From a phage, in NCBI GenBank assembly GCA_026066175.1, contig GCA_026066175.1_4721.1: DNA of 64,000 nucleotides; one strand, written 5' to 3'. Shown here one piece after another: positions 1,765 through 60,146 of this stretch (position 1 is the first letter of the stretch; each line of letters opens with the position of its first letter). The notes under the pieces are model-generated. The model saw only the letters and a program-made list of their open reading frames with translations, did not search any database and had not been told where the DNA came from. The position numbers and the translations under genes are program-made.

Positions 1765-1789
1765 AAAGCCTCCCTCCATGGGAGGCTTT
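1765..1789. terminator. GC-rich intergenic hairpin (aaagcctccc / gggaggcttt), putative intrinsic terminator
   Basis: Perfect inverted repeat with a 5-nt loop, followed by T-rich sequence, just downstream of the stop of the 1801..2349 gene. Confidence 0.45.
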
Positions 1790-1800
1790 ATTACGATAAT

Positions 1801-2349
1801 TTACATTACGCGGACAGCGAATTCAAGGACGTATACGTCATCGGCGTCCATTGGGTTTGTGGTCGAATAACCAATGAAACAATACCCCATCGCTGAAACG
1901 AAATCTTCGAGTTTATCAATGCTATTTGCGAGAATGCGATCATCGATGCTCAAACGGCATTTACGCGTTATTTTGTTACCGCGCGGTACGGCGGATAACA
2001 AACACATGAAATGCGTGATGCGGTTGTTATGGATAAACTGCGAATAGACATCAGAAGGATTGAGACTCCCCATAACGTCCTGAATGTGTGCACGACGTCC
2101 AGGTGATACATATTCCGAGTATGCGAATGTCGCTACCGTACGACGATCTTCAGTGAAATACGTATTACCTTCAGGGTGGTAGCTCTCCACGGTTCCATCT
2201 TCGCGGGCGACGGTTACGATAGGTGCACCGTATTCGTCACGGCTGAAATCAACTTTGCATTTATCCGTGAGTGGTAGTATCGTGCACGGCTTCGCGGTGT
2301 TCTCATCCGGGAGATCATAACCACTCATCATTTTCAAGAACATAGACAT
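1801..2349 (-). CDS. Hypothetical protein, paralog of 2436..2975
   Basis: ATG with GAGGT Shine-Dalgarno. Shares the MS(M/V)(F/I)(L/V)KMM N-terminus, a KP(C/F)T(I/L) block and TVAT(F/Y)AYS with the neighbouring ORF. Confidence 0.5.
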   Translation of the reverse strand: MSMFLKMMSGYDLPDENTAKPCTILPLTDKCKVDFSRDEYGAPIVTVAREDGTVESYHPEGNTYFTEDRRTVATFAYSEYVSPGRRAHIQDVMGSLNPSDVYSQFIHNNRITHFMCLLSAVPRGNKITRKCRLSIDDRILANSIDKLEDFVSAMGYCFIGYSTTNPMDADDVYVLEFAVRVM

Positions 2350-2401
2350 AATAGAACCTCATGGTAATAGAAGATAGAGTTAATAGATACTACAACAGAT
2401 T

Positions 2402-2425
2402 GAGGGGGTATTATCCCACCCCCTC
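2402..2425. terminator. GC-rich hairpin (gagggggt / accccctc)
   Basis: Inverted repeat in the intergenic gap between the two paralogous genes. Confidence 0.4.
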
Positions 2426-2435
2426 GCAGGGATTA

Positions 2436-2975
2436 TTACTTCTTATAAGGCGTGACTCTAAAGACACCCTCATTCTGATCATAAACAACCACGAACTGTC
2501 CGGCGAATAGATGACGGAGTAATGAGTCGATATTGTTTATAAATTGACTGTCATTTATCTGTACAAAATCGATTACGCGATCTCGCTTCAAACTACGATC
2601 GATTAAGCGTATTTCAAGCAACGCCATGATAAGTTTATCGTTAAGATATCCGCCTGCCTCCAAGGCTTTTCCATAACTGACGTTTTTGATATCAGCACGC
2701 ATACGCTCGACGTCTACCATGGGGAAACCGCAAGAATACGCATATGTTGCGACAGTGTTACCGTTATCCATCACGTAGACGTTACCGCCGGGATAATCGA
2801 TAAAACGTTGGGTTTTGTCACCATGAACAGCGATTTCTAACGTCGGTTTACCCATCGAATTGCGGTTGAATTCGATGGTCGTCAAGCGATCCGGCACCAC
2901 ATGCAGTGTAAACGGTTTCGAGTTGTTTTGATCGCTGGTATCGCAGTTGCCCATCATTTTTACAATAACACTCAT
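2436..2975 (-). CDS. Hypothetical protein, paralog of 1801..2349
   Basis: ATG at 2975 preceded by TAAGGAG; shared sequence blocks with the 1801..2349 product. Confidence 0.5.
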   Translation of the reverse strand: MSVIVKMMGNCDTSDQNNSKPFTLHVVPDRLTTIEFNRNSMGKPTLEIAVHGDKTQRFIDYPGGNVYVMDNGNTVATYAYSCGFPMVDVERMRADIKNVSYGKALEAGGYLNDKLIMALLEIRLIDRSLKRDRVIDFVQINDSQFINNIDSLLRHLFAGQFVVVYDQNEGVFRVTPYKK

Positions 2976-3050
2976 GTTTAACTCCTTAGTAGTCCTAGTA
3001 GTAGTTAATGAGGGAGTTCACCTCATCAGATAACCTATACTGGTAAGATC

Positions 3051-3362: not shown

Positions 3363-3372
3363 ACAAACATAA

Positions 3373-3404
3373 CCCTCCTCCTTCCCTTACGGGTTGGAGG
3401 AGGG
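3373..3404. terminator. GC-rich hairpin (ccctcctcc / ggaggaggg)
   Basis: Inverted repeat between 3415..3729 and 3051..3362. Confidence 0.45.
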
Positions 3405-3414: not shown

Positions 3415-3729
3415 TTATTCTGTTTTAGGTGACGAACCGTTCTTCTTGAAGTCGGATTCGTATTTCACATTAGAATCGAGAACCTCACGAACGGTTTTAT
3501 CTGTACAACCGCGGGCGATATACGCGTTCAAATCGTCACGCAATTTACGCATCGTTGTTTTATCCACATCAGAAACATCTGACTTGGTAAGACGGAATGC
3601 AATCGCATCACGAATTTTATTCAACGTTGCTGGATTATTACGCTGCTCTGCAAATACCGCTTTGATGAAGGTACCGCTGTCTTTCGAAGCAACGGCAGCA
3701 TCAAGAATCTCAATATGCTTTTCAGACAT
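3415..3729 (-). CDS. Hypothetical protein (104 aa)
   Basis: ORF on the gene strand. Confidence 0.4.
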   Translation of the reverse strand: MSEKHIEILDAAVASKDSGTFIKAVFAEQRNNPATLNKIRDAIAFRLTKSDVSDVDKTTMRKLRDDLNAYIARGCTDKTVREVLDSNVKYESDFKKNGSSPKTE

Positions 3730-3780: not shown

Positions 3781-5094
3781 TCACTTAGACACCGCCATGC
3801 TTCGCGCTAACGCAACGTCGTACGCATCCATGATTGCGTCGCCGATAGCAGTATGACGAATCAACGGAATACCTACGTCTGGATACTCTTTGGTACCCAT
3901 GATCGATACCGGTTTGTCCTGATAGGCTGCGATCATCGAACGAATGTCCTGAACCTGGTTGTATCGGCAGATGGGTTTAAAGCCTGCTTTACGGAACCAA
4001 TACTCTAATTGAGGCCAATCGGTTTCACCGCGGGCAAGATAATAGAAGGTATCTTTACCGTAGTATTCTGTCATTTTGTCACGAATATTGTTAACGAACG
4101 CATTGACTTCAGCAATGGCTTCTTTATAGCCCATTACCTTACCATGCTGGAAACAATAATCACGTGCTTCTTTCGGTGCTTTGGTTTGCCACCACTCTAC
4201 CGTTGATTCGCTGATACGACCACCGTCAGCGATTTGACCGTGCACGTCAGGGAAGACATCAATACGCGGACCGTTAACGATGGATTCTGGATTAGCCAGA
4301 TCGAAGAACACGATACCGATTTCTAACAACACCCCGTTCTTTTCCAGACTAAGGTTCTCAACATCCAAACAGAATGCAGGCTTCTCTACCGCTAATGGCT
4401 CGAATGAATGGTTGCTGGTATCCGACTCAGCTTCGAGTTCGGTGGCGTCCAGATCGGTATCCGCAGGTTTCAGTTCTAATACAGCATTATCAAGCCCGGT
4501 TAACGAAAAATAGTCTTCGAAGAAATCGGGTACCGTCATGCCATGCAAATCGATACCACAATCTTCCATCCATTGTTTAAACTGGCACTCATCGACATCG
4601 ATCGCTAAACGGCATGGTCCGTAACGATTATCCAATGACGCATCAATCCAGAAGAAAGTGCGTATAAGTAAGTAAGGATTATGCTCCGCGATGATTTCTT
4701 GGCTAGCGTGAGCATCATACACCATTACCTGTATTATTTCCTTACGTGTGTTATACGGATCAACCATCAATCGCCGCACGACTTCTCCCAGGTATTCCAG
4801 CGCACGTGTGTACACGGTAGATCCAACTTGTCCGTACGCGCTTATACCCGTCAATAGTTCCTTATAAGACGCGTCTGAAAGCGAAGACGATAGCACACGC
4901 GCCAGCTCGGCATTGTATATACTGCATGATTTCTTCGGGGCGATAGCATCATGTAACGCTTTAATAAACGCTGGTCCATCAATATCAAACAACCATCCTT
5001 GGCGTCGGTGGGCGGTATATCGTAATAACGCACCGATAGCTGCCTGGGGTGGTGTATATTCTTTTTCGTTAATTTCAAACAGTAGTTCGCTCAT
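3781..5094 (-). CDS. Protein with a C-terminal DnaQ-like DEDDh 3'-5' exonuclease domain
   Basis: Motifs LDVENLSL (Exo I, D-x-E) and HTAIGDAIMDAYD (Exo III, H-x-A-x-x-D-A) in the translated ORF. Confidence 0.5.
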   Translation of the reverse strand: MSELLFEINEKEYTPPQAAIGALLRYTAHRRQGWLFDIDGPAFIKALHDAIAPKKSCSIYNAELARVLSSSLSDASYKELLTGISAYGQVGSTVYTRALEYLGEVVRRLMVDPYNTRKEIIQVMVYDAHASQEIIAEHNPYLLIRTFFWIDASLDNRYGPCRLAIDVDECQFKQWMEDCGIDLHGMTVPDFFEDYFSLTGLDNAVLELKPADTDLDATELEAESDTSNHSFEPLAVEKPAFCLDVENLSLEKNGVLLEIGIVFFDLANPESIVNGPRIDVFPDVHGQIADGGRISESTVEWWQTKAPKEARDYCFQHGKVMGYKEAIAEVNAFVNNIRDKMTEYYGKDTFYYLARGETDWPQLEYWFRKAGFKPICRYNQVQDIRSMIAAYQDKPVSIMGTKEYPDVGIPLIRHTAIGDAIMDAYDVALARSMAVSK

Positions 5095-8139: not shown

Positions 8140-8400
8140 TTAAATTCCTTTTGATAAAAATACGTGGATGTCTGTAAGCTGTTCTTCGGGGATATCATCA
8201 GCTGCTGTTAGAACCTTGGGACCATGTTCGTTGAGGTAGGCTTCCCGCTGAAGCTGATGGAATCGATTGGCTTCTTGGAACTCGGTGTCCGTCATGTAAA
8301 CCAACTTGTACTTCGAACGTTTATTCGGATTATATCTCTTATTACGTTTCTTTGGTTTCTTCGCCATAATAGCCTCGTGAAGGTGGATGGCGCGTACCAT
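8140..8400 (-). CDS. Hypothetical small basic protein
   Basis: K/R-rich N-terminus (AKKPKKRNKRYNPNKRSK); start uncertain. Confidence 0.3.
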   Translation of the reverse strand: MVRAIHLHEAIMAKKPKKRNKRYNPNKRSKYKLVYMTDTEFQEANRFHQLQREAYLNEHGPKVLTAADDIPEEQLTDIHVFLSKGI

Positions 8401-8415
8401 CCACCTTCCTCCATG

Positions 8416-9754: not shown

Positions 9755-9794
9755 CGTCACCTCCTTTAATAAGTAGCAGGAATGCGGCATAGAA

Positions 9795-9812
9795 CCCTCC
9801 CCGGAGGGAGGG
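9795..9812. terminator. GC-rich hairpin (ccctccc / gggaggg)
   Basis: Inverted repeat in the intergenic gap. Confidence 0.4.
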
Positions 9813-9821
9813 TATGTAATG

Positions 9822-10379
9822 TTATTCCATCCAGACTTCTTCGTCGTAATGGTTCTCTATTGCGTTGCGCCAGAAGCGAACGGTATCCAAACTGATCGGC
9901 GTATAGAAATGTTGATCAACACCGACGTTGAGTCCGTTTGCTTTCGCTAACATACAACGATGGATATGTCCAAACAGATTGAAATACCCTGGGTTTCTTT
10001 CACTGGGTTTATGGCATAACCAATAAGACTCGTCGTTATTGATCGGCAATACCAACGGATGTTCATAAACCGCAGCAAATCCCATATCAAGGAGCTTGTC
10101 GCGGAAAGCATCAAAACTCAACCCGCTCGCCTTGCAGGCGTCCTCGTCCCAATTCCCGAGTACTAACTGAACCTGGATATCAGAACGAATGGCTTCAATG
10201 AACTCGAACTTGCCCCAATCGCCCAGATGCCACAACACGCTGTTCTTAGGGAGATTGTTGATGGCTTTCAGCATGTGTTGGTTCATGTCAGCCACGCTTG
10301 CAAACGGACGACGTGAATACACCCGGGTGCGTTCGCTGTCAAAATGCGTATCTGAAGTAAAGAAGATAGATGGGATCAT
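9822..10379 (-). CDS. Calcineurin-like metallophosphoesterase
   Basis: Motifs SDTHFD, HLGDWG, VLGNWDED and GHIH in the expected order. Confidence 0.55.
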   Translation of the reverse strand: MIPSIFFTSDTHFDSERTRVYSRRPFASVADMNQHMLKAINNLPKNSVLWHLGDWGKFEFIEAIRSDIQVQLVLGNWDEDACKASGLSFDAFRDKLLDMGFAAVYEHPLVLPINNDESYWLCHKPSERNPGYFNLFGHIHRCMLAKANGLNVGVDQHFYTPISLDTVRFWRNAIENHYDEEVWME

Positions 10380-11645: not shown

Positions 11646-11772
11646 ACGTTCGACGTTCATCGTATTTTATGGATTGTCGAATGACGTCATTTTAAGGGAC
11701 ATCCCCGGCCTCCTCCCCAGGAAAGGTGTGGGGAGGAGTTTTTACCAGACTTTTATTAATTCGAGTGCGAGT

Positions 11773-13854
11773 ATGTTAGATAGAATAAATCGCCTAATGA
11801 ACCGGATAACGGTTAAAAATCAAAGCAACAATACCGTGCATGTTGGGGGTATCGATGCCTGGCGTCTTTCGGACGATATCCAGCGAATCTGGGGTACCTC
11901 TCGGTTTATGAAATATATGTTTCGTAACTTCTCTTCCAGCGGTCTTAGCATTCACAACTTCTATCTGCCTGATTTCGTTTATATTCTTGAAACGATCATT
12001 GATGCAAAGAACACCCGCAGCAACAAGCGGATGCTAAAACGCCTTGTTGAAGTCTTGTTAGAAGAAACCTGGCTGCAAAATACCACCATCGAACAGCCAG
12101 CCATTCTTGATAAAGCGCGCATGAAGAAAATGATGACGCTTTCTTTGTTCGATTATCAAGATGAGTATCTCGACATTTATAACCGCAACGTTCCGAAATA
12201 TCGATTAAAAGGCCATGTGTGTGCGATGGGTGCCGGGGCGGGTAAAACAATTACCGCGTTGGCGTTAAGCGCTGCCTTGGGTGTTGACGTCTTCGTGGCA
12301 TGCTGTCCTAAGAACACCATGCGTTCGGCATGGCAATCAGATTTACATAAAGCGCTTGTGGATCCTGCAACCGAATCCGCATTCTGGTCTGATGTGATGC
12401 CCCCAACCCAGTTACAGAAAAGCGATAAATATTACTTCCTGCATTACGAGCAGATGGGATTGTTAAACGAGATCATGCTCAAGCATAAACGCACAGCAAA
12501 ACGTGTGTTGATCGTTGTCGATGAAAGCCATAACTTCAACGATAAGAACAGTCAACGTTCTCAGCGTTTGGTTGATCTGGTACAGACGATGCGTCAAACC
12601 ATGAATGCGGACATACATGTCTTATTTATGTCGGGTACGCCTGTTAAACAGATGGGTTCTGAAATGATCCCATGTTTAGGTTGCATTGACCCGATGTTCC
12701 AAGGCCAGGTGGTTGATAGCTTCAAGTCGATTTACGGTTTAACCAGCAGTCGTGCTAATGATATCTTAAGGCATCGTCTTGGATTCATGATGCATGTCGT
12801 ACCCAAAGAAGCTTACCGTAAGACACGGCCTGAGGTTCAGGACGTATACGTGAAACTGCCTAACGGTAGTGATTACACCATCTCAAGTATCCGTGACGAT
12901 ATGGCGGTGTTTGTGCGTGACCGTGCAAAATACTACAAAGATAACTGGGGGCATTACCGGAAGATTTTCGATGATGCGCTGGATTTCTATCGTCGGACCA
13001 TACGGACGGAAGGTGAGCGTAAAGAACTGTCTCGTTATGAATCCATCGTCGCCCGCTTTCAGAAAGGTTACGATCCTGTCAGGGATAAAGAAGACGCCAT
13101 GTTCTGCAACGTGTTCGAGAAACGAGCGATCATGCCGATTCTTCCTCCCGATTTACGGATTGCGTTCAAAGACGCCAAAAGCGTCATCAAGTACGTCGGA
13201 TTGAAGATTCAAGGGGAAGCCTTGGCAAGGGTTCTTGGCGCAGCGCGCATTCAATGCCACGTTGATATGGTCGAGTATATCGATTTTGAAGGGTATATCA
13301 ACAATGCTGAAGCCAAAGTGCTGATCTTCACGTCATACGTTCAGGTAGTTGAACGCGTTGATAACCTGCTTCGCGATGCGGGCTTCTTACCAGAACCGAT
13401 CTACGGGAAGACCAACAAGAACATTAACCAGATCCTCGCGCGATTACGCGATGATCCTGACAGCGGTCCCGCTATCGCAACCTTTGATAGTTTAGCGGAA
13501 GGGGTTCCTATGTTAATGTGTAACGTCGGCCTTTTCTTAAATAACCCCTGGCGTTCCTCCGATGAGATCCAAGCCATCAGTCGTCTCGACCGTGTTGGTC
13601 AAACCCAACCTGTTCGTATCTATCGTTTCATGCTGGATACTGGCAGCGAAGGTAACGTTTCAACACGAAGCCAAGAGATCATGGAGTTAAGTCGTCAGCT
13701 GGTTGAAGAAATCACAGGTGTTAAATACAATGTGAATAAACAAGCCGACGTTAACCTACAAGAAACGCTGGCTATGGAAGGGTACGATAGATACTTGACG
13801 ATTAATACCCCTGGGTTTGAAATCAAACCGCGTTCCACGTTCTTAGAATGGTAA
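11773..13854 (+). CDS. SNF2/Rad54-family helicase-like ATPase
   Basis: Walker A GAGAGKT, DExH box VVDESHN, motif VI QAISRLDRVGQ. ORF track start 11599 is GTG and reads through an intergenic hairpin and the promoter motif; first ATG after them is 11773. Confidence 0.55.
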   Translation: MLDRINRLMNRITVKNQSNNTVHVGGIDAWRLSDDIQRIWGTSRFMKYMFRNFSSSGLSIHNFYLPDFVYILETIIDAKNTRSNKRMLKRLVEVLLEETWLQNTTIEQPAILDKARMKKMMTLSLFDYQDEYLDIYNRNVPKYRLKGHVCAMGAGAGKTITALALSAALGVDVFVACCPKNTMRSAWQSDLHKALVDPATESAFWSDVMPPTQLQKSDKYYFLHYEQMGLLNEIMLKHKRTAKRVLIVVDESHNFNDKNSQRSQRLVDLVQTMRQTMNADIHVLFMSGTPVKQMGSEMIPCLGCIDPMFQGQVVDSFKSIYGLTSSRANDILRHRLGFMMHVVPKEAYRKTRPEVQDVYVKLPNGSDYTISSIRDDMAVFVRDRAKYYKDNWGHYRKIFDDALDFYRRTIRTEGERKELSRYESIVARFQKGYDPVRDKEDAMFCNVFEKRAIMPILPPDLRIAFKDAKSVIKYVGLKIQGEALARVLGAARIQCHVDMVEYIDFEGYINNAEAKVLIFTSYVQVVERVDNLLRDAGFLPEPIYGKTNKNINQILARLRDDPDSGPAIATFDSLAEGVPMLMCNVGLFLNNPWRSSDEIQAISRLDRVGQTQPVRIYRFMLDTGSEGNVSTRSQEIMELSRQLVEEITGVKYNVNKQADVNLQETLAMEGYDRYLTINTPGFEIKPRSTFLEW

Positions 13855-13860
13855 TTAAGA

Positions 13861-13882
13861 AGCTCTGCCCGAAGGCAGAGCT
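13861..13882. terminator. Hairpin (agctctgcc / ggcagagct) followed by T-tract
   Basis: Immediately downstream of the stop of the plus-strand helicase gene. Confidence 0.5.
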
Positions 13883-13948
13883 TTATGCCGGATTTACCAC
13901 GAAATCGTATGACGCGATATGCGTCTTTAATTAAAGGAAAAGCGCGAA

Positions 13949-15422: not shown

Positions 15423-15456
15423 CTTCCTCCCTACCCATAACGGGCGGGGAGGAAGG
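15423..15456. terminator. GC-rich hairpin (cttcctccc / ggggaggaagg), bidirectional position
   Basis: Lies between the convergent genes 13949..15403 (+) and 15473..15811 (-). Confidence 0.5.
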
Positions 15457-16716: not shown

Positions 16717-16738
16717 AAGGGCTTCATCGGAAGCCCTT
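16717..16738. terminator. Hairpin (aagggcttc / gaagccctt)
   Basis: Inverted repeat downstream of the helicase gene. Confidence 0.45.
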
Positions 16739-16749: not shown

Positions 16750-19011
16750 TTACAATTCGAAATCTTCATCGATAACGCGTTGGGTTAGCACCTTGTCGCT
16801 GAAGAACTCCACCTTACGTTGATGGTATTTCCGATGTGCTTCAATCGACGTACACACCAGATACCAGAACGTGGGTGTCATACCCTCGAACTTCCCTTTC
16901 AGCTGACGTAGTCGACCTAACACCTGAATGTTACCAGTTCTCGACCCCATCGCTAACGTCATGAACGTCATCACCAAGTCAGGAAGATCGATTCCTGTAC
17001 CAGCCGATTTTACCGTTGTCACACTGATATCATTATCCAGTAACACCATGAAATCTTCTTCAGCGGTATAAGGACCTATCTCCAACTCAGGGATACGTTC
17101 ACTTAAGTAATGCGATAACGACTTGCACATATCAACGGTTGCACAATACACCAACATCTTCATGCCTTCCTGATATTGGTTCATGAAACCTTTGATAATA
17201 ACCGTATAGATAAAGTTGAAATAGGCGAGTTTGAGTTGCTTATTCTTCATGATAGACTGTTCGAATACCGTGTGAGAATAAGAACCTCCAAAGCCTTTGT
17301 ATCGGACTTTATCCGTACTGCGTAGTCGATACGTCACCGCATTTACCGCGATGTATTTCTTGTATTCACATTTCGCATAACGTGCTTCTTTCGGATACAT
17401 CAAATACAGCATCCGCTCGATGAACGGATCGTCAGACACCGCCGTTGCCGACAGATAAATGATTTCCGGAATATTCGCGTAACACTTCACTTTGAACAAG
17501 AAATGCAGAGCTTCGTGACATTCATCGTGGATTAACAATCCAATGCCTGTTTTCTCCCAGAACTCGACTGGATGGAAAACATAAGGTGCGACACAGTTGT
17601 TCTTTTCATAATCGGTTATATAACGCTGAAACATGTTCAGTGAGAATAACGCAATTTTGAAATCCAACTCACCTTGTTCTACCAACGTCTGAAATTCCAA
17701 CATGCTGTAACGAGGAATGTCGGGATGCGGTGGGTCAGACTGGGCTGTACCACGTATCTCGATAACATCACCTGGTTCCATACCGAAGAAACTTAGCAGT
17801 GAGCTACGCCATCCAGGCATGTACCTCGGTGACAGAATGATGCCCGTCCGTACACCACGTCGGAAGGTGATCTCCTGCGACATTGCGGTGTTGTGCGTGA
17901 CGATATGGTCTTTAATAACATAAAGGCTTTCGTCGTTGTCCACCGTGATGCAACGTGCCTTCGCTTTCACCGTCGGCACGATGCCGCCAATCGCTAAACC
18001 AGGAAGCGTGTTAACGGGAAGATCATCTGGAATCTCAATGCCGTCAGGAATAAGCTTAAGCAAATCGGAATGGTAAATTAATGTCTCCATCGTGTAACTA
18101 TTGATGGGGCATTTATACGCGATTCCCCCTAACCGATAAGCCAACTCCCAGACCTCGGTCATTATCTGCGAATCGGTGGTTCTGACCGCAAGGTGAGCCC
18201 ACCCTTCTTCAACACGCAGCACGCAACGATCTTTGATGAGTTCTCTGAAACGATCAAGACCCACGAGTTCTTTCGGTTCGTAAAGTCGGATTCTTACCGG
18301 ACGAGATCGTGACGATCTGTCATTAAGACGTTCCATGATTTCACTCGTGCTGAGCACCTTGTCAGGATCCGTGCATTGCCAGAGATGATCACCACACGCT
18401 TCAACCATTCGTCCATCTTCAAAGAAGACAGCGTAAAGCTGAATATCGTCATGATCAAAGATAGCAGTTACGTTCGTCGGTAAACCATCCGCGCCGATGA
18501 CCTCATCACCCACCTGGAGCTCACCAATCGGCTTCCAACCGCTTGGAACCTTAACGGGTGTATGGAGAGCCAATGCTTTCCCAGACCCCGTGCCTGCGGT
18601 GTTTAGGCTCATTCTGAAAGGGGTATCCTTACCCCCATCCATGTACTCCAACCATTCTTGCTGATCTTCACGCCACGGAAACTTCCAGTTCTTCACAAAC
18701 TCCACTTCCTTACCTGGAACCGGATCGTGGTAAACGATTTCCAACCACTCCTTTCGAATTCCTCGAGAAAAGATAAAATCCAAAAACGACTTCAGCTGTT
18801 CACGAAGTAAGTAGACCTCGCTATAATCGCTTCTTGCTGCGGCGTAGGTGTTGATGGTATCGGTGACCATTCTCCGTGTACGAGGGTCGCGTCGTTTCCG
18901 TAGATGCAAACAACGGTCTCGAAGGTAATGGCCAATCAAATGGGCAAATCGAAGTCCGTATCCGCTCAGCTTCATGCCATGCGAGAAGACGTCGATACGA
19001 GCTAACTTCAT
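16750..19011 (-). CDS. DExH-box helicase with an intein-like insertion in the Walker A motif
   Basis: GTGSGK is followed by a 229-residue insert ending VTHN, then T; removing the insert gives GTGSGKT. Downstream DExH box LLIHDECHEAL. Confidence 0.55.
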   Translation of the reverse strand: MKLARIDVFSHGMKLSGYGLRFAHLIGHYLRDRCLHLRKRRDPRTRRMVTDTINTYAAARSDYSEVYLLREQLKSFLDFIFSRGIRKEWLEIVYHDPVPGKEVEFVKNWKFPWREDQQEWLEYMDGGKDTPFRMSLNTAGTGSGKALALHTPVKVPSGWKPIGELQVGDEVIGADGLPTNVTAIFDHDDIQLYAVFFEDGRMVEACGDHLWQCTDPDKVLSTSEIMERLNDRSSRSRPVRIRLYEPKELVGLDRFRELIKDRCVLRVEEGWAHLAVRTTDSQIMTEVWELAYRLGGIAYKCPINSYTMETLIYHSDLLKLIPDGIEIPDDLPVNTLPGLAIGGIVPTVKAKARCITVDNDESLYVIKDHIVTHNTAMSQEITFRRGVRTGIILSPRYMPGWRSSLLSFFGMEPGDVIEIRGTAQSDPPHPDIPRYSMLEFQTLVEQGELDFKIALFSLNMFQRYITDYEKNNCVAPYVFHPVEFWEKTGIGLLIHDECHEALHFLFKVKCYANIPEIIYLSATAVSDDPFIERMLYLMYPKEARYAKCEYKKYIAVNAVTYRLRSTDKVRYKGFGGSYSHTVFEQSIMKNKQLKLAYFNFIYTVIIKGFMNQYQEGMKMLVYCATVDMCKSLSHYLSERIPELEIGPYTAEEDFMVLLDNDISVTTVKSAGTGIDLPDLVMTFMTLAMGSRTGNIQVLGRLRQLKGKFEGMTPTFWYLVCTSIEAHRKYHQRKVEFFSDKVLTQRVIDEDFEL
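17890..18576 (-). other. Putative intein (229 codons, Ala1 ... His-Asn, +1 Thr)
   Basis: Hint-like blocks GELQVGDEVIGADG near the N-terminus and CITVDNDESLYVIKDHIVTHN at the C-terminus; sits exactly inside the P-loop. Confidence 0.5.
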
Positions 19012-21720: not shown

Positions 21721-21751
21721 CCCCTCCCACCTCCACATGGGAGAGGGAGGG
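21721..21751. terminator. GC-rich hairpin (cccctccc ... gggaggg)
   Basis: Inverted repeat in the intergenic gap. Confidence 0.45.
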
Positions 21752-22572: not shown

Positions 22573-22601
22573 CCTCCTCCCACCGCACGGGCAGGAGGAG
22601 G
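22573..22601. terminator. GC-rich hairpin (cctcctcc / ggaggagg)
   Basis: Inverted repeat in the intergenic gap. Confidence 0.45.
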
Positions 22602-36361: not shown

Positions 36362-36364
36362 AAA

Positions 36365-36390
36365 CCCTCCCCGCGCTATGCAGGGAGGGT
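36365..36390. terminator. GC-rich hairpin (ccctcccc / gggagggt)
   Basis: Inverted repeat in the intergenic gap. Confidence 0.45.
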
Positions 36391-39347: not shown

Positions 39348-39371
39348 GGGAGGGAGGTTGCCCTCCCTCCC
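39348..39371. terminator. GC-rich hairpin (gggagggagg / cctccctccc)
   Basis: Immediately downstream of the stop of the 39398..41296 gene. Confidence 0.5.
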
Positions 39372-42631: not shown

Positions 42632-42663
42632 CCCTCCTCCTTCCCTGATGGGTTGGAGGAGGG
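42632..42663. terminator. GC-rich hairpin (ccctcctcc / ggaggaggg)
   Basis: Lies between convergent genes. Confidence 0.45.
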
Positions 42664-44822: not shown

Positions 44823-45131
44823 AAACCCTCCAAAAGTCGTGTAGCCTATCTACATCATCTCGTATATCTGTTAAAAAAGAAAGACGGCATAAAAAAGAAC
44901 CGATCCAGCCGAAGCCAGATCGGTTGAAAGGATATTAATAACAGGGAAATGAAAGTGTGACTGAAAGATATCGATGATGTTCGTGAAATAAGATCTCTCG
45001 TATACAGTGATGCCAGATCAGAGGGAGGTTGTAAACGAGAGACGGTTCACTAAAGGAGTAACAAACGCGAACCTATCTTATTTCACCGATGGCGCTAACC
45101 ACTCAAAATATATAGTGCTGTATGTAAAAGT

Positions 45132-48930: not shown

Positions 48931-48987
48931 AAACTCTCCTACACGGCATAAAAGCCTGCCCCGAAGGACAGGCTCATCATGATACTT

Positions 48988-49185
48988 TTAACCTTCCATC
49001 TTCAATGAGGGATGGTTGACGATATGTGCATGTTTGGTTGGGTCATACGACTGATAAGGGAAATAGCCATGCCATTGACGGCCTTGACATTTCGTACACA
49101 GGAACTGACCATCACGGCGTTGATGCTCGTATGCCAATTCAGTGCTATCAACGTGACCGCAACGTTCGCAGATAAACAGCGACAT
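48988..49185 (-). CDS. Small zinc-ribbon protein (65 aa)
   Basis: CERCGH ... CTKC spacing. Confidence 0.4.
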   Translation of the reverse strand: MSLFICERCGHVDSTELAYEHQRRDGQFLCTKCQGRQWHGYFPYQSYDPTKHAHIVNHPSLKMEG

Positions 49186-50246: not shown

Positions 50247-51089
50247 ATGGGTGCTATTGACTACAGTGTCGATCGTATCTGCCGTACAATACCGGCAGAT
50301 ATTCTACAGTATTGCTATATCGATCGTTACGATTGGCGTAACCGCTATCCGCGTTCCGTTGAAGATATCATTACCGATTGGGTAATCCGTAAACGGGTTA
50401 TCGGAGACATCGATATCTACGGGGGGCTACAGACCGTTATTCCTCTTGATGATGCAGGCGTTACGATTGAAGAAGTCACCATTAACTGTTATGTTTTCCA
50501 TATTCCGCTGGAAGCGACACAAGGACGTTATATCACGTCAGCCTTGTCGATTATCTCTGGGAGCGTGAATAACTACGGAATCAACTATAACGGTCAATGG
50601 GGGGCGTTCAACCAAACCCAGTTCCAACGACAGCTTTGCGGATGGAACCCCGCAAGCAACGCATTGCAACAAGGGATGAATGCATTCGGTCCGGTGAACA
50701 TCCTCAGTACTGCTAACGTTGACATCATCGCACCTAACACCATCATGGTGAACAACGTCACACCGGTTCAATTCCCGTTGAGCTTACGCTGTTTCCTTGC
50801 CCATGATCCAGAACTAACCAACCTCAGCATGGAAGTCTGGAACGACTTTTACAAGCTCTGTTTATACGCCACACAAAGTGACATCTATAACAGAACCGTT
50901 ATTCGTCTCGATCGTGGTGTTACCGCACAAGGTCAAGAAGTCGGTGCATTCAAGGAATACATCGATCGCTTCGCTGATGCGGAAAACACCTACCAGGAAT
51001 TCCTGAACGAGACGTGGGCAGGCGTTGCTGCATGGAACGACCCACAAACGAAACGTCGGGCAATACGTCTGCAAACCGGTTACTTCTGA
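50247..51089 (+). CDS. Hypothetical protein (280 aa)
   Basis: ATG preceded by AAAGGGG; followed by a hairpin. Confidence 0.45.
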   Translation: MGAIDYSVDRICRTIPADILQYCYIDRYDWRNRYPRSVEDIITDWVIRKRVIGDIDIYGGLQTVIPLDDAGVTIEEVTINCYVFHIPLEATQGRYITSALSIISGSVNNYGINYNGQWGAFNQTQFQRQLCGWNPASNALQQGMNAFGPVNILSTANVDIIAPNTIMVNNVTPVQFPLSLRCFLAHDPELTNLSMEVWNDFYKLCLYATQSDIYNRTVIRLDRGVTAQGQEVGAFKEYIDRFADAENTYQEFLNETWAGVAAWNDPQTKRRAIRLQTGYF

Positions 51090-51590
51090 TTATCTGTGGT
51101 TCCCTCCCTCGGCGAGTTCGAGGGAGGTCTCAACAAAGCCAGCAGCAACACCACTCGCCGATATCTGTAAGGTATCGTTGAAGATAAGATCGTCAGGTAA
51201 ACAATCGAAGTAAATACCATATTGCGTGTTTGTCGTATTAATGATCAATGACGGCGTCGGTCGCGTTTTCTTAATGTCGGTGATATACAAACGTAAGAAC
51301 GTTTCACCGTCTTCGCTATCCGTAAAACGATACGCGTTACCAGAAAACTCGACACGTGGCGTAACGATAAACTGCACGCGATCGTCAGCCGGATGGATAT
51401 TTAGCCACCGTGCGATATCATCTGTGTTCACGTTGTGCATACTCAGCACGGTATACGCAAACAACGTAGCATGATGTTTGGAATAATGCAGTACATAAGC
51501 CGCATCTTTCTTTTTGTGAACCCCTTCAACGTATTCTATTGTCGTGTAGCCTGATTTATAAAGCTTTACTTGCGGTTTCTCATTCATCAT
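51090..51590 (-). CDS. Hypothetical protein
   Basis: Track start 51671 is TTG; first ATG at 51590 forms an ATGA overlap with the stop of 51587..51886. Confidence 0.4.
   Translation of the reverse strand: MMNEKPQVKLYKSGYTTIEYVEGVHKKKDAAYVLHYSKHHATLFAYTVLSMHNVNTDDIARWLNIHPADDRVQFIVTPRVEFSGNAYRFTDSEDGETFLRLYITDIKKTRPTPSLIINTTNTQYGIYFDCLPDDLIFNDTLQISASGVAAGFVETSLELAEGGNHR
51102..51127. terminator. GC-rich hairpin (ccctccctc / cgagggagg)
   Basis: Downstream of the plus-strand gene 50247..51089; overlaps the 3' end of the minus-strand ORF. Confidence 0.4.
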
Positions 51591-57435: not shown

Positions 57436-57464
57436 CCTCCTCTGGGAATGGAACCCAGAGGAGG
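57436..57464. terminator. GC-rich hairpin (cctcctctggg / cccagaggagg)
   Basis: Eleven-bp stem downstream of the plus-strand gene. Confidence 0.5.
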
Positions 57465-57484
57465 CTATGTTTATTATGCTGTCT

Positions 57485-57805
57485 TTAAAACTCAATTCGA
57501 CCTTTTGTGGTAAATAATACACCTCTTTGCCAACAGAAAAGATCCTCCGATTGCGCACATACACGAATACCGGCATCGAACAAATGTTTTGTTCTGGCGC
57601 TTAAACAATCTGAATCTTCTACGTACAACAGAAGACGTTGACATTTATTCTGAATGCGTTCAACAAGAATGTTCTTATCGCTTAAAATAGAATGCGCGTT
57701 ATCCGTTAAGTTATCGTCTGTTTCCAGCTGTTTAACAAGTTTGATTAAAATACGTAATTGCTCGAGTGTGTCATGATCAAGTGAATCGCCCATGGCGTAC
57801 CTCAA
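57485..57805 (-). CDS. Hypothetical protein (106 aa)
   Basis: ORF on the gene strand. Confidence 0.35.
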   Translation of the reverse strand: MRYAMGDSLDHDTLEQLRILIKLVKQLETDDNLTDNAHSILSDKNILVERIQNKCQRLLLYVEDSDCLSARTKHLFDAGIRVCAQSEDLFCWQRGVLFTTKGRIEF

Positions 57806-57835
57806 CGTTATACGTCGTTCGTATTATAATACTTA

Positions 57836-57863
57836 GACTCCCCATCGGAATTAACGGGGAGTC
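57836..57863. terminator. Hairpin (gactcccc / ggggagtc)
   Basis: Immediately downstream of the terminase gene stop. Confidence 0.45.
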
Positions 57864-57875
57864 TGCAAATCGTGC

Positions 57876-60107
57876 TTAGAAAAAACCTCCCGGACGATAT
57901 TGTCCCATCGTCATCCACGCGTTACGAGAAATATTCCGTTCGTTTGAGGAGCGGCTTATTTGACGATACGTGTTCGCGCGTTCTTCCCTTGCTTTCGTGA
58001 TCATCGCGTCAATAGAAACAGACGCTGAATCCTCCCCACGTATCTTCCCTTTATACGTAAGAAGCTCTGCCTCCAAACGATCCAAAATGAGGCCGTTGGT
58101 TTCGGTTTTGAGCAGCTCATAGATTTCAGCAACACGTTGACGTAACTTCGCCTGCTGTTGGTTCAGATACGCTTCGTAGGGGTCTATTTCACCGGTCACC
58201 GATGCCGGTAAACGACTCATGACTTTAAGGGGATCGATACCATAATGGATCTGTTTCTTAGCACGCTTAATGAACCACATCGCCAACATCCACGCAAAGG
58301 TCATGTCGTCGTGCATTCCATCCTGGTGGTCGACACGTCCGTCTTTAATCACCAAGCCGAGAATCTCAGAACACAGCATCTTGTCGCGTAATTGTCCACG
58401 CGTTTCTACAATACCTTCCATCAAGATGTCGGAATATAATTCCATACGTTTGCGCGCATCCGTGGTGAAACCCAGATGCTTCTTACGTTGTGCGTACCAG
58501 CTTTCATCACGCATGCTTAACGGTAATTTCAAGTCTTCAAACATCGCCGGGTTGTCAGCATGTCTGTCCACAATGGTGTTATAGACACGTTTGAATACAT
58601 CGATACCCGCTTGTCTTAGGAACTCCTCGATCGCGTCTAACAGCATAATCGCACTGCTTTTACGTTCAGGAATCAACGTCACATTTTTATATCGCATCAG
58701 GAAGTTCGCTATCCAGCGCGCAAATGAAAGCAAGCTTAACTTATTAAAACGACCTGTCGCCACAACCTCTGCTGTTTCCACGTCAACCATGACCAGACCG
58801 ATAGCATCTCGACCAATCGCATCACTGGTATCCAAACCCGCAACCACCTTATTGTTCTGCATGTAGGTTTCGATCTGACCTCGAGGGATATACCAGTTAA
58901 CGCAGTAGCCTTCAGGTGAAATCTCAATGTGGTCGATTTCACGTTGTCCCGCCATGATCATTTCAACCATCTCAGCGGTTAACGGGCTTTCTGCTGAACC
59001 GTTGGTCCAGATGTTCATGTAGTCGCGGTCTTTCTGGAGTTTGTCACCTTCCGTTTCGTTCATGGTTTTCGCTAACCATTCATCACTGAATCCCAGCTGG
59101 GCATGGTTCCATTGCGCACCAATCCTGACGGTCGCCTTGCTAAGTTCGCACGGTACATTGTTCAATACCGTTTGATGTAAATGTTTTTCGTTACGGCAAT
59201 CAAAGAAACTTTCAGAGAACGGCGCTGAACGCATGAAAACTTCATACGCCCATTTTCCTTCACGTTTATCCAATTCCCCAGCCGTTGTTGTGTAGATGAT
59301 ACTGGTTAAGTCACCGTTACTTAACGCTTCATCACGTGCCGCACCCATCGCACCGATACCGGCAGGAACAATGATTTCAATGTATTTCGTAAACGCGGTT
59401 TCGTCGCTATGGAATATCGGGGTGGTTAGACCACGGCCGATGTTCGTGGCTTGTTTCTTATCCGAACGCGGAATCTTCACCGAAAGCTTGTTCTTAAAAC
59501 GTGTGTAGGTGACGTTTTCTTTGTTCGATGAGTCACGGCTATCCAGCGTCCAGAGATACGCCGGTAACAGATCACGGATACTACGCACGTCTTCTACTGT
59601 TTTCGTACGCGCATCACCGTCTTTTGTTAGCTGGATGACTTCGGTGTTACGACTGCGTACATACGTCAGATAGCAAAACAAACCTAACATGGTCATGGAT
59701 TTACCAGTCTGACGTATCTGTATCTGATACCAGTTCGTTCGTGTGAATATCCCCCACAGCATCGGAATATTACCGCGGTTAGCACGGAATGAGATTTTGT
59801 TGTCACCCGCTTTTGCTGGGACACGCATCACTTCACGGAAGAAGTACCATGGATTGAGGTAACATTCTGCACTGATCATCTGAATCTGTTCAGACGTCAA
59901 ATTCGGCGCATGAGGATCCACACCAATCAATCTTGGATTCAACAACGCCATGAAGAACGCGGAGTTACGAACGCCGAATTCACGACGGTATAAAATCGCT
60001 AAATCACGCCAACTTGTGTTTGTTGTTTCCCAGTGCGGAACCGCTTGAGGAAAATAATCCCAATCCTCCTCAAACAGAATGATTTTCTTCGGATCAACAA
60101 TCGACAT
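57876..60107 (-). CDS. terL: Terminase large subunit
   Basis: Walker A-like IQIRQTGKSMTMLG in the N-terminal ATPase region and an acidic DHQDGMHDDMTFAW segment in the C-terminal nuclease-like region; size 743 aa. Confidence 0.55.
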   Translation of the reverse strand: MSIVDPKKIILFEEDWDYFPQAVPHWETTNTSWRDLAILYRREFGVRNSAFFMALLNPRLIGVDPHAPNLTSEQIQMISAECYLNPWYFFREVMRVPAKAGDNKISFRANRGNIPMLWGIFTRTNWYQIQIRQTGKSMTMLGLFCYLTYVRSRNTEVIQLTKDGDARTKTVEDVRSIRDLLPAYLWTLDSRDSSNKENVTYTRFKNKLSVKIPRSDKKQATNIGRGLTTPIFHSDETAFTKYIEIIVPAGIGAMGAARDEALSNGDLTSIIYTTTAGELDKREGKWAYEVFMRSAPFSESFFDCRNEKHLHQTVLNNVPCELSKATVRIGAQWNHAQLGFSDEWLAKTMNETEGDKLQKDRDYMNIWTNGSAESPLTAEMVEMIMAGQREIDHIEISPEGYCVNWYIPRGQIETYMQNNKVVAGLDTSDAIGRDAIGLVMVDVETAEVVATGRFNKLSLLSFARWIANFLMRYKNVTLIPERKSSAIMLLDAIEEFLRQAGIDVFKRVYNTIVDRHADNPAMFEDLKLPLSMRDESWYAQRKKHLGFTTDARKRMELYSDILMEGIVETRGQLRDKMLCSEILGLVIKDGRVDHQDGMHDDMTFAWMLAMWFIKRAKKQIHYGIDPLKVMSRLPASVTGEIDPYEAYLNQQQAKLRQRVAEIYELLKTETNGLILDRLEAELLTYKGKIRGEDSASVSIDAMITKAREERANTYRQISRSSNERNISRNAWMTMGQYRPGGFF

Positions 60108-60119
60108 ATAAACTCCTCC

Positions 60120-60146
60120 GATGGAGGGTGCCGAGCACCCTCCATC
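60120..60146. terminator. Strong hairpin (gatggagggtgc / gcaccctccatc)
   Basis: Twelve-bp stem between 60158..61897 and the terminase gene. Confidence 0.5.

What the first reader, a model, noticed from the sequence alone, without database searches (positions are those of the whole stretch)
1765..60146. Stereotyped CCCTCC...GGAGGG hairpins punctuate almost every gene boundary
At least 18 intergenic gaps contain a perfect GC-rich inverted repeat built on the same words (cctcc, ccctccc, gggaggg). Examples are 1765..1789, 3373..3404, 9795..9812, 15423..15456, 21721..21751, 22573..22601, 25593..25621, 36365..36390, 39348..39371, 42632..42663, 51102..51127, 57436..57464 and 60120..60146. Many sit between convergent genes and could act bidirectionally; some lack a clear U-tract, so they may be processing or stability elements rather than intrinsic terminators. 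The purine arm gggagg also resembles a Shine-Dalgarno sequence on one strand.
Basis: seen in the sequence. Interest (0 to 1): 0.45.

Follow-up and report, generated by a model that had tools for sequence, protein, structure and literature searches.

The report
Jumbo-phage transcription terminator hairpins
The CCCTCC…GGAGGG hairpins are real and far from random, but they are the conserved "hairpin + TTATG-YYGT" transcription terminators already mapped in phiKZ-type nucleus-forming giant phages, found here in an E. coli relative of phage Goslar.

Summary
The window is a relative of the nucleus-forming jumbo phage Goslar (85% identity). All 13 cited hairpins exist. I count 21 GC-rich hairpins of this kind. 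Fourteen use the CCTCC/GGAGG words, and 20 lie in intergenic DNA, most 5-32 nt after a stop codon. That is about 28% of gene junctions, not "almost every" one.

The stem is followed by T(T)TATG, often TTATGCCGT. Eight of 13 TTATKYYGT sites follow a strong hairpin, against 1.8% of random positions.

This matches the phiKZ terminator motif found by 3'-end mapping (BCCYCCCC-loop-GGGRRGG-YTTATKYYGT). A covariance model built from five phiKZ sites retrieves 14 hits on nine window hairpins. The same hairpin-plus-tail occurs in at least 120 viral stretches, mostly from 220-325 kb contigs.

G·U pairs occur only in the sense-strand fold (13 vs 0), which indicates an RNA-level function. Nine hairpins carry tails on both strands and are probably bidirectional. 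The ATG in the tail is usually not a start codon, so the GGAGG arm is not a general Shine-Dalgarno.

Verdict: a new member of a known kind. The open point is why the tail overlaps the nvRNAP promoter word TATG.

The parts
1765..1789 (.). Terminator hairpin AAAGCCTCCC-loop-GGGAGGCTTT. The minus-strand tail is TATGCCGTC; the plus-strand tail is (TTT)ATTACG. It lies 11 nt after the stop of gene 1801..2349 (-).
   Evidence: Model hits on both strands (E 0.0013 on +, 0.02 on -). The Goslar ortholog is annotated 'putative transcriptional terminator'.
2402..2425 (-). GC-rich hairpin GAGGGGGT..ACCCCCTC with a T-rich, non-consensus tail AATCTGTTGT. It lies 10 nt after the stop of gene 2436..2975 (-).
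   Evidence: One sense-only G.U pair. Annotated as a terminator in Goslar.
3373..3404 (.). Hairpin CCCTCCTCC..GGAGGAGGG with TTATG tails on both strands (- TTATGTTTG, + GATTATGCTGT). It lies 10 nt after the stop of gene 3415..3729 (-).
   Evidence: Model hits on both strands. The tail ATGs open ORFs of 7 and 13 codons.
9794..9813 (.). Hairpin ACCCTCCC-loop-GGGAGGGT. The minus-strand tail is TCTATGCCGC; the plus-strand tail is (T)ATGTAATG. It lies 8 nt after the stop of gene 9822..10379 (-).
   Evidence: Model hits at E 4.3e-05 (-) and 0.062 (+). The true start of the next gene is probably the ATG 12 codons downstream, behind AAGGAGGTGA.
11710..11738 (+). Hairpin CTCCTCCCCA..TGGGGAGGAG followed by TTTTTACC. 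It sits in the divergent region, 34 nt before helicase gene 11773..13854 (+). It may be a leader terminator or attenuator; its role is less clear than the others.
   Evidence: Identical in Goslar, where it is annotated as a terminator.
13860..13883 (+). Hairpin AAGCTCTGCC-CGAA-GGCAGAGCTT with tail TATGCCGG. It lies 5 nt after the helicase stop (13854).
   Evidence: It is the best hit of the phiKZ-trained model (29.6 bits, E 3e-05). Annotated as a terminator in Goslar.
15423..15456 (.). Bidirectional hairpin between convergent genes (+ gene ends 15403; - gene ends 15473). Tails are + TTTATGTGG and - TTATGCTAA.
16717..16738 (-). Hairpin AAGGGCTTC..GAAGCCCTT, 11 nt after the stop of gene 16750..19011 (-). 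It has no consensus tail.
21721..21751 (.). Hairpin CCCTCCCTCTCC..GGAGGTGGGAGGGG (minus-strand reading). Tails are - TTTATGCCGTT and + TGTATGTTA. It lies 6 nt after the stop of gene 21758..22120 (-).
   Evidence: Model hits on both strands. One sense-only G.U pair.
22573..22601 (.). Hairpin CCTCCTCC..GGAGGAGG. Tails are - ATGCTTATGCTG and + CGTAATATGCG. It lies 11 nt after the stop of gene 22613..23023 (-).
   Evidence: Two sense-only G.U pairs, and the sense fold is 4 kcal/mol more stable.
25593..25621 (.). Bidirectional hairpin between the gp172-like + gene (ends 25587) and the - gene ending at 25654. Tails are + CATTTATGCCGTC and - TTATCTTAAG.
26963..26983 (-). Hairpin GGTCCCC..GGGGACC, 6 nt after the stop of gene 26990..28576 (-). 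The sense tail is ATTGTCG (non-consensus); the antisense tail is TATGG.
36364..36390 (-). Hairpin ACCCTCCC..GGGAGGGT with the full-consensus tail TTATGCCGTC. It lies 22 nt after the stop of gene 36413..37051 (-).
   Evidence: The sense fold is 4 kcal/mol more stable.
39348..39371 (-). Reversed-polarity hairpin GGGAGGGAGG-loop-CCTCCCTCCC with tail TTATACGTCC. It lies 26 nt after the stop of the nuclear-shell (chimallin) gene 39398..41296 (-) and is nested in a longer outer stem.
   Evidence: Identical in Goslar.
42632..42663 (.). Bidirectional hairpin between convergent genes (+ gene ends 42629; DNA polymerase gene on - ends 42669). Tails are + TTATGTTAC and - GATTATACA. It is a near-copy of hairpin 3373.
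44898..44925 (-). Hairpin AACCGATCTGG..CTGGATCGGTT followed by CTTTTTTATGCCGTC. This combines a canonical U-tract with the consensus tail.
   Evidence: Two sense-only G.U pairs, and the sense fold is 5 kcal/mol more stable. Annotated as a terminator in Goslar.
48952..48975 (-). Hairpin GAGCCTGTCC-TTCG-GGGCAGGCTT with tail TTATGCCGTG. It lies 12 nt after the stop of gene 48988..49185 (-).
   Evidence: Two sense-only G.U pairs. Annotated as a terminator in Goslar.
51103..51127 (+). Hairpin CCTCCCTCG..CGAGGGAGG, 13 nt after the stop of + gene 50247..51089. It lies inside the last codons of the convergent - ORF and has no consensus tail.
57436..57464 (.). Hairpin CCTCCTCTGGG..CCCAGAGGAGG between convergent genes (+ gene ends 57296; - gene ends 57485). 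Tails are + CTATGTTTATTATGCTGT and - ACTATGGGG.
57835..57864 (-). Hairpin AGACTCCCC..GGGGAGTCT, 11 nt after the stop of terminase gene 57876..60107 (-). The tail is AAGTATTATAAT (non-consensus).
   Evidence: Two sense-only G.U pairs.
60119..60147 (-). 13-bp hairpin CGATGGAGGGTGC-TCG-GCACCCTCCATCG, 10 nt after the stop of gene 60158..61891 (-). It is followed by GAGGAGTTTAT-ATG, the SD and start of the terminase gene.
   Evidence: Conserved in Goslar with one loop change.

Best explanation
These hairpins are factor-independent transcription terminators of the class conserved in phiKZ-like, nucleus-forming jumbo phages (Chimalliviridae).

Each element has three parts:
- a stable RNA stem-loop, usually with a pyrimidine-rich CCYCC 5' arm and a purine-rich GGRGG 3' arm;
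- a short U-rich stretch (UUAU) directly after the stem;
- a conserved G-Y-Y-G-U after that.

The proposed mechanism is as follows. The polymerase is probably one of the phage's own multisubunit RNA polymerases working inside the ribosome-free phage nucleus. When it transcribes the element, the hairpin forms in the exit channel while the 3' end sits in the weak UUAU/GYY segment, and the transcript is released.

The stem is a near-palindrome and CATAA often precedes it, so about nine elements present the same hairpin plus TTAT(G) tail on the opposite strand. These should also stop convergent or antisense transcription. The retained 3' hairpin should additionally protect the mRNA end from 3'-5' exonucleases.

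What is shown here: the anatomy, the non-random placement, the strand asymmetry, and the match to the phiKZ motif. What is shown in the literature, for phiKZ and 201phi2-1: RNA 3' ends map at this motif, and terminators from 201phi2-1 are active in a terminator trap. What is inferred: that termination occurs in this phage, which polymerase is involved, and what the GYYGU part does.
For: Identity of the genome. The window is 85% identical to phage Goslar over 87% of 25 kb. The region encodes RNAP beta-like subunits, the nuclear shell protein and PhuZ.

Placement. Twenty of 21 hairpins lie in the roughly 7% of the window that is intergenic, most 5-32 nt after a stop codon.

Tail. Eight of 9 TATGCCG sites follow a hairpin. 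Eight of 13 TTATKYYGT sites are preceded by a hairpin of dG <= -16, against 1.8% of random positions (binomial p = 1e-11).

RNA-level and directional. In 16 hairpins with a single gene direction, the folds contain 13 G.U pairs in the sense RNA and 0 in the antisense RNA. The sense fold is 1.8 kcal/mol more stable on average (Wilcoxon p = 0.006).

Conservation. At orthologous Goslar sites the stems are kept while the loops change. Six orthologs are annotated there as putative terminators.

Published motif. ONT-cappable-seq of phiKZ gave 61 intrinsic terminators with the motif BCCYCCCCHWWDGGGRRGGBYTTATKYYGT. The paper on 201phi2-1 says its motif A (n = 59) strongly resembles the phiKZ motif, and eight 201phi2-1 terminators worked in a terminator trap.

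Cross-genome test. A covariance model built from five phiKZ sites gives 14 window hits at E <= 0.11, all on my curated hairpins. It hits the orthologous Goslar sites and gives 25 hits in 50 kb of phiKZ.

Breadth. CCCTCCC-loop-GGGAGGG-TTATG occurs in at least 120 IMG/VR stretches, mostly from contigs of 220-325 kb. The bases after TTATG are Y (84%), Y (88%), G (62%), T (59%). The same holds for hairpins with unrelated stems: 78 of 884 have a TTATG tail against a background of 0.34%.
Against: No RNA data exist for this phage, so 3' ends at these sites are inferred from phiKZ and 201phi2-1.

The literal 30-nt phiKZ consensus, which has a fixed 4-nt loop, has no match in the window at up to 3 mismatches. 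The window stems and loops are longer.

Only 8 of 26 sense-direction tails have a canonical U-tract, and a generic terminator scan finds no excess (19 against 18.5 expected in the first 20 kb). By E. coli rules, termination efficiency would therefore be doubtful.

Mapped 3' ends cannot by themselves separate true termination from exonucleolytic trimming back to a hairpin.

Seven hairpins lack the consensus tail in the sense direction (2402, 11710, 16717, 26963, 51103, 57835, 60119) and may work differently. Hairpin 11710 sits in a 5' leader rather than after a gene.
Confidence: 0.8

Rival explanations
1. The elements are combined terminator and restart-promoter cassettes. The TATG in the tail would be the nvRNAP late-promoter word, with G as +1. 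Transcription would stop at the hairpin and a new transcript would start a few bases later. A variant is that the same TATG-reading pocket of the polymerase makes it pause there.
For: In phiKZ the late promoter consensus is 5'-TATG-3', with the G as the start site, and it is essential in vitro. The beta-like subunit GP123 binds TATG of the non-template strand sequence-specifically. In the window, the tail is TATG at most consensus sites. Several tails are followed by a leader of 50-110 nt before the next gene's own SD, for example at 1765, 21721 and 13860.
Against: Full-consensus tails also point where there is no gene to express. This applies to convergent junctions (25593 +, 15423, 42632, 57436) and to the antisense side of co-directional junctions (3373 +, 9794 +, 21721 +).

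The phiKZ model late promoter P119L has neither an upstream hairpin nor YYGT after TATG.

In jumbo-phage hairpin tails, G follows TTAT in only about 59% of cases, so TATG is not obligatory.

TATGCCG almost never occurs in the window without a hairpin.
Confidence: 0.15
2. The elements are RNA stability or processing elements only. Polymerase would read through, and the hairpins would act as barriers to 3'-5' exonucleases or as nuclease sites that define stable mRNA ends.
For: Most lack a long U-tract. The phage encodes an Rv2179c-like 3'-5' exoribonuclease (window 3781..5094; Goslar gp147). 3'-end mapping cannot tell trimming from termination.
Against: A stability barrier needs only a stem. Here, 9 nt downstream of the stem are conserved across more than 100 phage stretches. 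Terminators from 201phi2-1 reduce downstream reporter expression in a terminator trap.
Confidence: 0.1
3. The elements are translational control hairpins. The GGAGG 3' arm would be the Shine-Dalgarno of the next gene, hidden in the stem and exposed by ribosomes finishing the upstream gene.
For: GGAGG followed by 3-6 nt and then ATG looks like an ideal ribosome-binding site. Upstream stops are only 5-26 nt away. At four sites (9790, 22572, 25627, 36361) the tail ATG is in frame with a long ORF.
Against: Twenty of 24 tail ATGs open ORFs of 1-92 codons that are not the neighbouring gene. The ORF from 25627 overlaps a real convergent gene and is spurious. Downstream genes carry their own SD 12-150 nt further on, for example GAGAGGAGGCTAAAatg and AAGGAGGTGACGatg. 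Tails and hairpins occur on the antisense strand. Stems without GGAGG carry the same tail.
Confidence: 0.03
4. The elements are DNA-level palindromes, acting as cruciforms, recombination sites or protein-binding sites rather than as RNA.
For: They are near-perfect palindromes. The inner segment of hairpin 3373 is exactly inverted between the window and Goslar, and 42632 shows the same polarity switch. This suggests that recombination happens at the arms.
Against: G.U pairs occur only in the sense-strand fold (13 against 0), which is not expected for a DNA structure. The elements are placed just after stop codons.
Confidence: 0.02

Closest known systems
Conserved intrinsic terminator motif of Pseudomonas phage phiKZ (Putzeys et al. 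2024, PMC10914365) and motif A of 201phi2-1 (PMC11512511)
   Same: Both have a GC-rich stem-loop with a CCYCCCC 5' arm and a GGGRRGG 3' arm, followed at once by YTTATKYYGT. Both lie just after genes. Both include bidirectional cases at convergent genes. Both occur in a chimallivirus genome with its own multisubunit RNAPs. A model trained on phiKZ sites retrieves the window sites.
   Different: The host and genus differ (an Escherichia Goslar-like phage). Stems and loops are longer and often interrupted, so the literal 30-nt consensus does not match. G after TTAT and CCG after that are more uniform here (TTATGCCGT). No transcript mapping exists for this phage.
Canonical bacterial Rho-independent terminators
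   Same: Both have a stable GC-rich hairpin shortly after a stop codon, with a U-rich proximal tail. Bidirectional versions have an A-rich 5' flank and a T-rich 3' flank.
   Different: The U-tract is only 3-4 U (UUAU). It is followed by a conserved GYYGU, which ordinary terminators do not have. Only 8 of 26 tails pass a '5 T in 8' rule.
phiKZ nvRNAP late promoter (TATG, G = +1)
   Same: The four-base word TATG is present in most tails.
   Different: The model promoter P119L has no hairpin and no YYGT. Many tails face away from any gene.
Promoter/stem-loop cassettes (PeSLs) of T4-type phages. This comparison is from my own knowledge (Arbiol, Comeau and Krisch 2010) and was not tested here.
   Same: Both are repeated intergenic stem-loop modules at gene boundaries of large virulent phages.
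   Different: PeSLs are described as mobile early-promoter cassettes that mediate gene shuffling. Here, the breakpoints between the window and Goslar do not coincide with hairpins.

Membership tests
phiKZ-type conserved terminator motif | GC-rich stem-loop with a pyrimidine-rich CCYCCCC 5' arm and a purine-rich GGGRRGG 3' arm | tested here: met
   Fourteen of 21 hairpins use CCTCC/GGAGG-type arms. Twelve have C-rich 5' polarity and two (39348, 60119) are reversed.
phiKZ-type conserved terminator motif | Tail YTTATKYYGT immediately 3' of the stem | tested here: met
   Eight of 13 TTATKYYGT sites in the window follow a hairpin of dG <= -16 (p = 1e-11). Further hairpins have partial tails (TTATG, TTATA). 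Seven hairpins lack it in the sense direction.
phiKZ-type conserved terminator motif | Match to the published 30-nt IUPAC consensus (fixed 7-bp stem, 4-nt loop) | tested here: not met
   There were 0 matches at up to 3 mismatches. The window stems and loops are longer, so the failure is one of geometry, not of the parts.
phiKZ-type conserved terminator motif | Recognised by a sequence-plus-structure model trained on phiKZ sites | tested here: met
   Model R1 was built from 5 phiKZ sites. The top 14 window hits (E 3e-05 to 0.11) all fall on curated hairpins. The orthologous Goslar sites are also hit. I chose the five training sites from the phiKZ sequence. I could not check that they are among the 61 published sites, because the supplement is not held.
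phiKZ-type conserved terminator motif | Located after genes or in intergenic DNA of a chimallivirus genome | tested here: met
   Twenty of 21 hairpins are intergenic, most 5-32 nt after a stop codon.
phiKZ-type conserved terminator motif | Primary transcript 3' ends map at the element | not testable with these tools
   No transcriptome data for this phage or for Goslar were found.
Canonical Rho-independent terminator | U-tract (at least 5 T in 8 nt) directly after the stem | tested here: not met
   Only 8 of 26 sense-direction tails pass. A generic scan shows no excess over shuffles.
SD-sequestering translational hairpin | The 3' arm GGAGG lies 4-12 nt before the authentic start codon of the downstream gene | tested here: not met
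   Twenty of 24 adjacent ATGs open ORFs of 1-92 codons that are not the neighbouring gene. The real starts have their own SD. Hairpin 22573 is a possible exception.
phiKZ nvRNAP late promoter | TATG with transcription starting at the G, directed into a gene | tested here: inconclusive
   TATG is present. However, many tails face antisense or convergent genes, and P119L lacks the hairpin and the YYGT. Start-site use cannot be tested here.
Any Rfam family | Score at or above the gathering threshold | tested here: not met
   There were 0 matches in the whole window.

The most novel reading that the evidence does not exclude
The conserved tail TTATG-YYGT may not be just a short U-tract. It may be a polymerase-specific signal for the chimallivirus RNA polymerases.

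One version is that the pocket reading TATG on the non-template strand at late promoters also catches it during elongation. The other version is that the G-rich end of the stem together with Y|G forms a G(-10)...Y(-1)G(+1) elemental-pause signal, with the 3' end 7-10 nt from the stem.

In either version the enzyme stalls exactly where the hairpin can release it. That would explain how terminators without a U-tract work in a compartment with no ribosomes, and probably no Rho. Some sites could also double as restart promoters.
Probability: 0.2. Interest if true: 0.6.

Novelty: new member of a known kind. Interest (0 to 1): 0.3.

Why it matters
In nucleus-forming phages, transcription is physically separated from translation and is carried out by phage-made polymerases. 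Transcript ends must therefore be encoded in the nucleic acid itself.

The phiKZ terminator design, including the unexplained TTATG-YYGT tail, recurs in an E. coli phage and in over a hundred mostly jumbo-sized viral stretches. This gives three practical results:
- a simple rule for annotating transcription units in these genomes; Goslar's own annotation flags the orthologs of only 6 of the 21 hairpins;
- a set of compact, often bidirectional insulators for engineering;
- a concrete sequence to mutate in order to learn how these unusual polymerases terminate.

It is not a new kind of element.

Tried and rejected
- Literal phiKZ consensus search in the window: 0 hits. I replaced it with tests of the separate parts and with a covariance model.
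- Generic sigma-70 and terminator scan: no enrichment, so not informative for this polymerase system.
- Rfam: nothing at the gathering threshold.
- Shine-Dalgarno or start-codon role of GGAGG...ATG: rejected as a general role.
- Restart-promoter role of TATG: weakened by the orientation of the tails and by P119L, but not excluded.
- A link to the mRNA-binding protein ChmC: the eCLIP study found no motif, and binding peaks lie near start codons, so there is no support.
- Hairpins as boundaries of gene cassettes: the breakpoints between the window and Goslar (828-1709, 17892-18574, 37291-37309, 37708-38065) do not coincide with hairpins.
- Supplementary TSS and TTS tables of the phiKZ and 201phi2-1 papers, and Ceyssens et al. 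2014, are not held. I could not check whether published start sites fall on terminator tails.
- MAFFT alignments A1 and A3 misaligned stems of different polarity or length and were discarded. My first loose hairpin criteria (dG <= -9 or -12) were too permissive, with 28% of random positions passing, so I tightened them.

Full report
**What the window is**

A megablast of bases 1-25000 against phage genomes finds only Escherichia phage vB_EcoM_Goslar, at 85.1% identity over 87% of the query. The matching Goslar region (131-201 kb) encodes several RNA polymerase beta-like subunits, the nuclear shell protein, the tubulin PhuZ, a DNA polymerase and the terminase. The window therefore comes from a Goslar-like member of the nucleus-forming jumbo phages (Chimalliviridae). 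Most genes are on the minus strand.

**Checking the observation**

All 13 cited coordinates hold GC-rich stem-loops. CCTCC followed by GGAGG within 8-45 nt occurs 28 times, in 13 clusters, against 1.5 +/- 1.3 in shuffles. The words themselves are not over-represented.

Going through every intergenic gap on the coding strand, and adding a search for perfect stems, gave 21 hairpins of this kind. Fourteen are built on the CCTCC/GGAGG words and seven on other GC-rich stems. Twenty lie in the roughly 7% of the window that is intergenic, most 5-32 nt after a stop codon.

This corresponds to about 28% of gene junctions, not almost all of them. Only five hairpins lie between convergent genes. One more hairpin (8379-8408) belongs to a different class and is described at the end.

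Read in the direction of the genes, the stem is followed at once by one to three T and then TATG, very often TATGCCGT.

- TATGCCG is not enriched in the window as a word (9 found, 7.3 expected). However, 8 of the 9 copies sit directly after a hairpin.
- With a strict criterion (hairpin of dG <= -16 ending within a few bases), 8 of 13 TTATKYYGT sites qualify, against 1.8% of random positions (p = 1e-11).
- Nine hairpins have CATAA before the stem as well as TTAT(G) after it. The opposite strand therefore presents the same hairpin and tail.

**What it is**

ONT-cappable-seq of phiKZ identified 133 termination regions. Sixty-one of them share the motif 5'-BCCYCCCCHWWDGGGRRGGBYTTATKYYGT-3', a stem-loop followed by TTAT. 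The paper on 201phi2-1 says its motif A (59 of 132 terminators) strongly resembles the phiKZ motif. Eight 201phi2-1 terminators reduced read-through in a terminator trap in uninfected host cells. The window elements have the same arms and the same nine-base tail.

I tested membership in three ways.

1. The literal consensus does not match at up to 3 mismatches. The window stems and loops are longer than its fixed 7-bp stem and 4-nt loop.
2. A 50-kb piece of phiKZ shows the same anatomy, including the CATAA...TTATG symmetry.
3. A covariance model built from five phiKZ sites only gives 14 window hits with E between 3e-05 and 0.11, all on curated hairpins. Nothing else appears until E of about 1. 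The model also hits the orthologous Goslar sites and gives 25 hits in the phiKZ piece.

One caveat applies. I picked the five training sites from the phiKZ sequence and could not check them against the published list, because the supplement is not held.

**Breadth**

Most are from contigs of 220-325 kb, and several contigs carry many copies.

In 169 unique instances, the bases after TTATG, which were not part of the query, are Y (84%), Y (88%), G (62%) and T (59%).

In the same loci, hairpins with unrelated stems also carry the tail. TTATG follows within 9 nt in 78 of 884 cases, against a background of 0.34%, and YYGT again comes after it. After TTAT alone, the next base is G in 59% of cases.

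The defining parts are therefore the hairpin and the tail. The CCYCC/GGRGG arms are a strong preference, not a requirement.

**RNA or DNA, and in which direction**

For the 16 hairpins with a single gene direction, the predicted folds contain 13 G.U pairs when read as sense RNA and none when read as antisense. The sense fold is on average 1.8 kcal/mol more stable (Wilcoxon p = 0.006). This is the classic signature of selection on an RNA structure in the direction of transcription.

Between the window and Goslar, stems are conserved while loops change freely. At 85% identity there are few informative compensatory changes. The structural support therefore comes from the variety of stems among the copies and from the G.U bias.

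**Rivals**

*Shine-Dalgarno.* GGAGG, a few bases and then ATG looks like a ribosome-binding site. However, 20 of 24 stem-adjacent ATGs open ORFs of 1-92 codons that are not the neighbouring gene. One of the four long ones (25627) overlaps a real convergent gene. The true downstream starts have their own SD further on.

*Restart promoter.* TATG, with the G as +1, is the phiKZ late promoter word. [quoted passage not shown] Against this reading:
- Full tails also face antisense or convergent genes.
- The model promoter P119L has no hairpin and no YYGT.
- G is not obligatory after TTAT.
- TATGCCG hardly ever occurs without a hairpin.

I therefore treat the tail as part of the terminator. A double role at some sites remains possible.

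*Stability element only.* A stem would be enough for that role. The conserved nine bases downstream, and the terminator-trap data, argue for an action on the polymerase. Protection of the 3' end is a likely extra benefit, since the phage encodes a 3'-5' exoribonuclease.

*ChmC binding.* The published eCLIP study found no motif.

**Mechanism, with its status**

- Shown here: the anatomy, the placement, the strand bias and the family match.
- Shown elsewhere, for related phages: RNA 3' ends at the motif and termination activity in vivo.
- Inferred: that termination occurs in this phage, by its own polymerases.
- Inferred from general knowledge of multisubunit RNAPs: if the RNA ended at the second Y of GYY|G, the 3' end would be 7-10 nt from the stem, which is the canonical distance. 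The G-rich end of the stem would then sit near -10, and the next base would be G. This resembles the G(-10)/Y(-1)/G(+1) elemental pause consensus (my own knowledge; not tested here).
- Alternatively, the TATG-binding pocket could stall the enzyme.

Either idea would explain why a short UUAU is enough. Neither can be tested with these tools.

**Verdict**

This is a real, strongly non-random and well-explained feature. It is a new member of a known kind, the phiKZ-type terminators, now seen in a Goslar-like E. coli phage. Goslar's annotation marks the orthologs of only six of the 21 hairpins. Interest is modest. The one open thread is the function of the conserved TTATG-YYGT tail.

**Seen in passing**

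- A 12-bp hairpin covers the SD and start codon of gene 8140..8400. Its loop is fully changed in Goslar while the stem is kept.
- Two group I intron-like segments lie between the RNAP beta' exons.
- The window has an extra DUF7448 gene and an in-frame insertion of about 680 nt in a helicase, relative to Goslar.
- The inner segment of hairpin 3373 is exactly inverted between the two phages. Its near-copy at 42632 has the same inner-arm polarity as 3373 within each genome.

Noticed in passing
window 8379-8408 (minus strand): A perfect 12-bp hairpin (about -22 kcal/mol). Its 5' arm contains part of the SD and the ATG (8400) of gene 8140..8400, and its 3' arm is codons 4-8. The upstream gene stops 15 nt before the start codon. 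In Goslar all six loop bases differ while the stem is identical. This looks like occlusion of the start site, or translational coupling, and not a terminator.
   Followed up: partly
window 37305-37674 and 37746-38083 (minus strand): Two group I intron-like matches lie between the exons of an RNAP beta'-like gene (49.1 bits and 27.9 bits; the gathering score is 50). Goslar has one annotated intron plus an HNH endonuclease gene here. The window lacks the HNH gene (Goslar 167846-169282 has no counterpart) and has an extra 357 nt at 37708-38065, which is the second intron-like segment.
   Followed up: partly
window 828-1709: A gene-sized insertion relative to Goslar. It encodes a 287-aa protein with a DUF7448 domain (E = 6e-18) and lies just downstream of terminator 1765-1789.
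   Followed up: partly
window 17892-18574: An in-frame insertion of about 680 nt in helicase ORF 16750..19011 (753 aa, against 524 aa for Goslar gp164). There is no Pfam hit. It could be an intein or an inserted domain.
   Followed up: no
window 3373-3404 and 42632-42663; Goslar orthologs at L001 about 3584-3615 and L002 about 8250-8310: The two hairpins are near-identical 32-mers (29 of 32 bases) lying 39 kb apart. In Goslar the inner segment of the 3373 ortholog is the exact reverse complement of the window's. The 42632 ortholog is a longer hairpin whose inner arms have the same flipped polarity. This suggests flipping at the palindrome arms, or gene conversion between copies.
   Followed up: partly
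window 3781-5094 (minus strand): A phage-encoded Rv2179c-like 3'-5' exoribonuclease (Pfam PF16473, E = 3e-16). It is relevant to a possible 3'-end-protecting role of the terminator hairpins.
   Followed up: no
window 16702, 26935, 49186, 60108 (minus strand): Several genes start with TATGTCG (Met-Ser), which also fits the TATGYYG part of the terminator tail. At 60119 and 16717 this start lies 9-16 nt after a hairpin. This is probably coincidence with codon usage, but it blurs the counting of tails.
   Followed up: no
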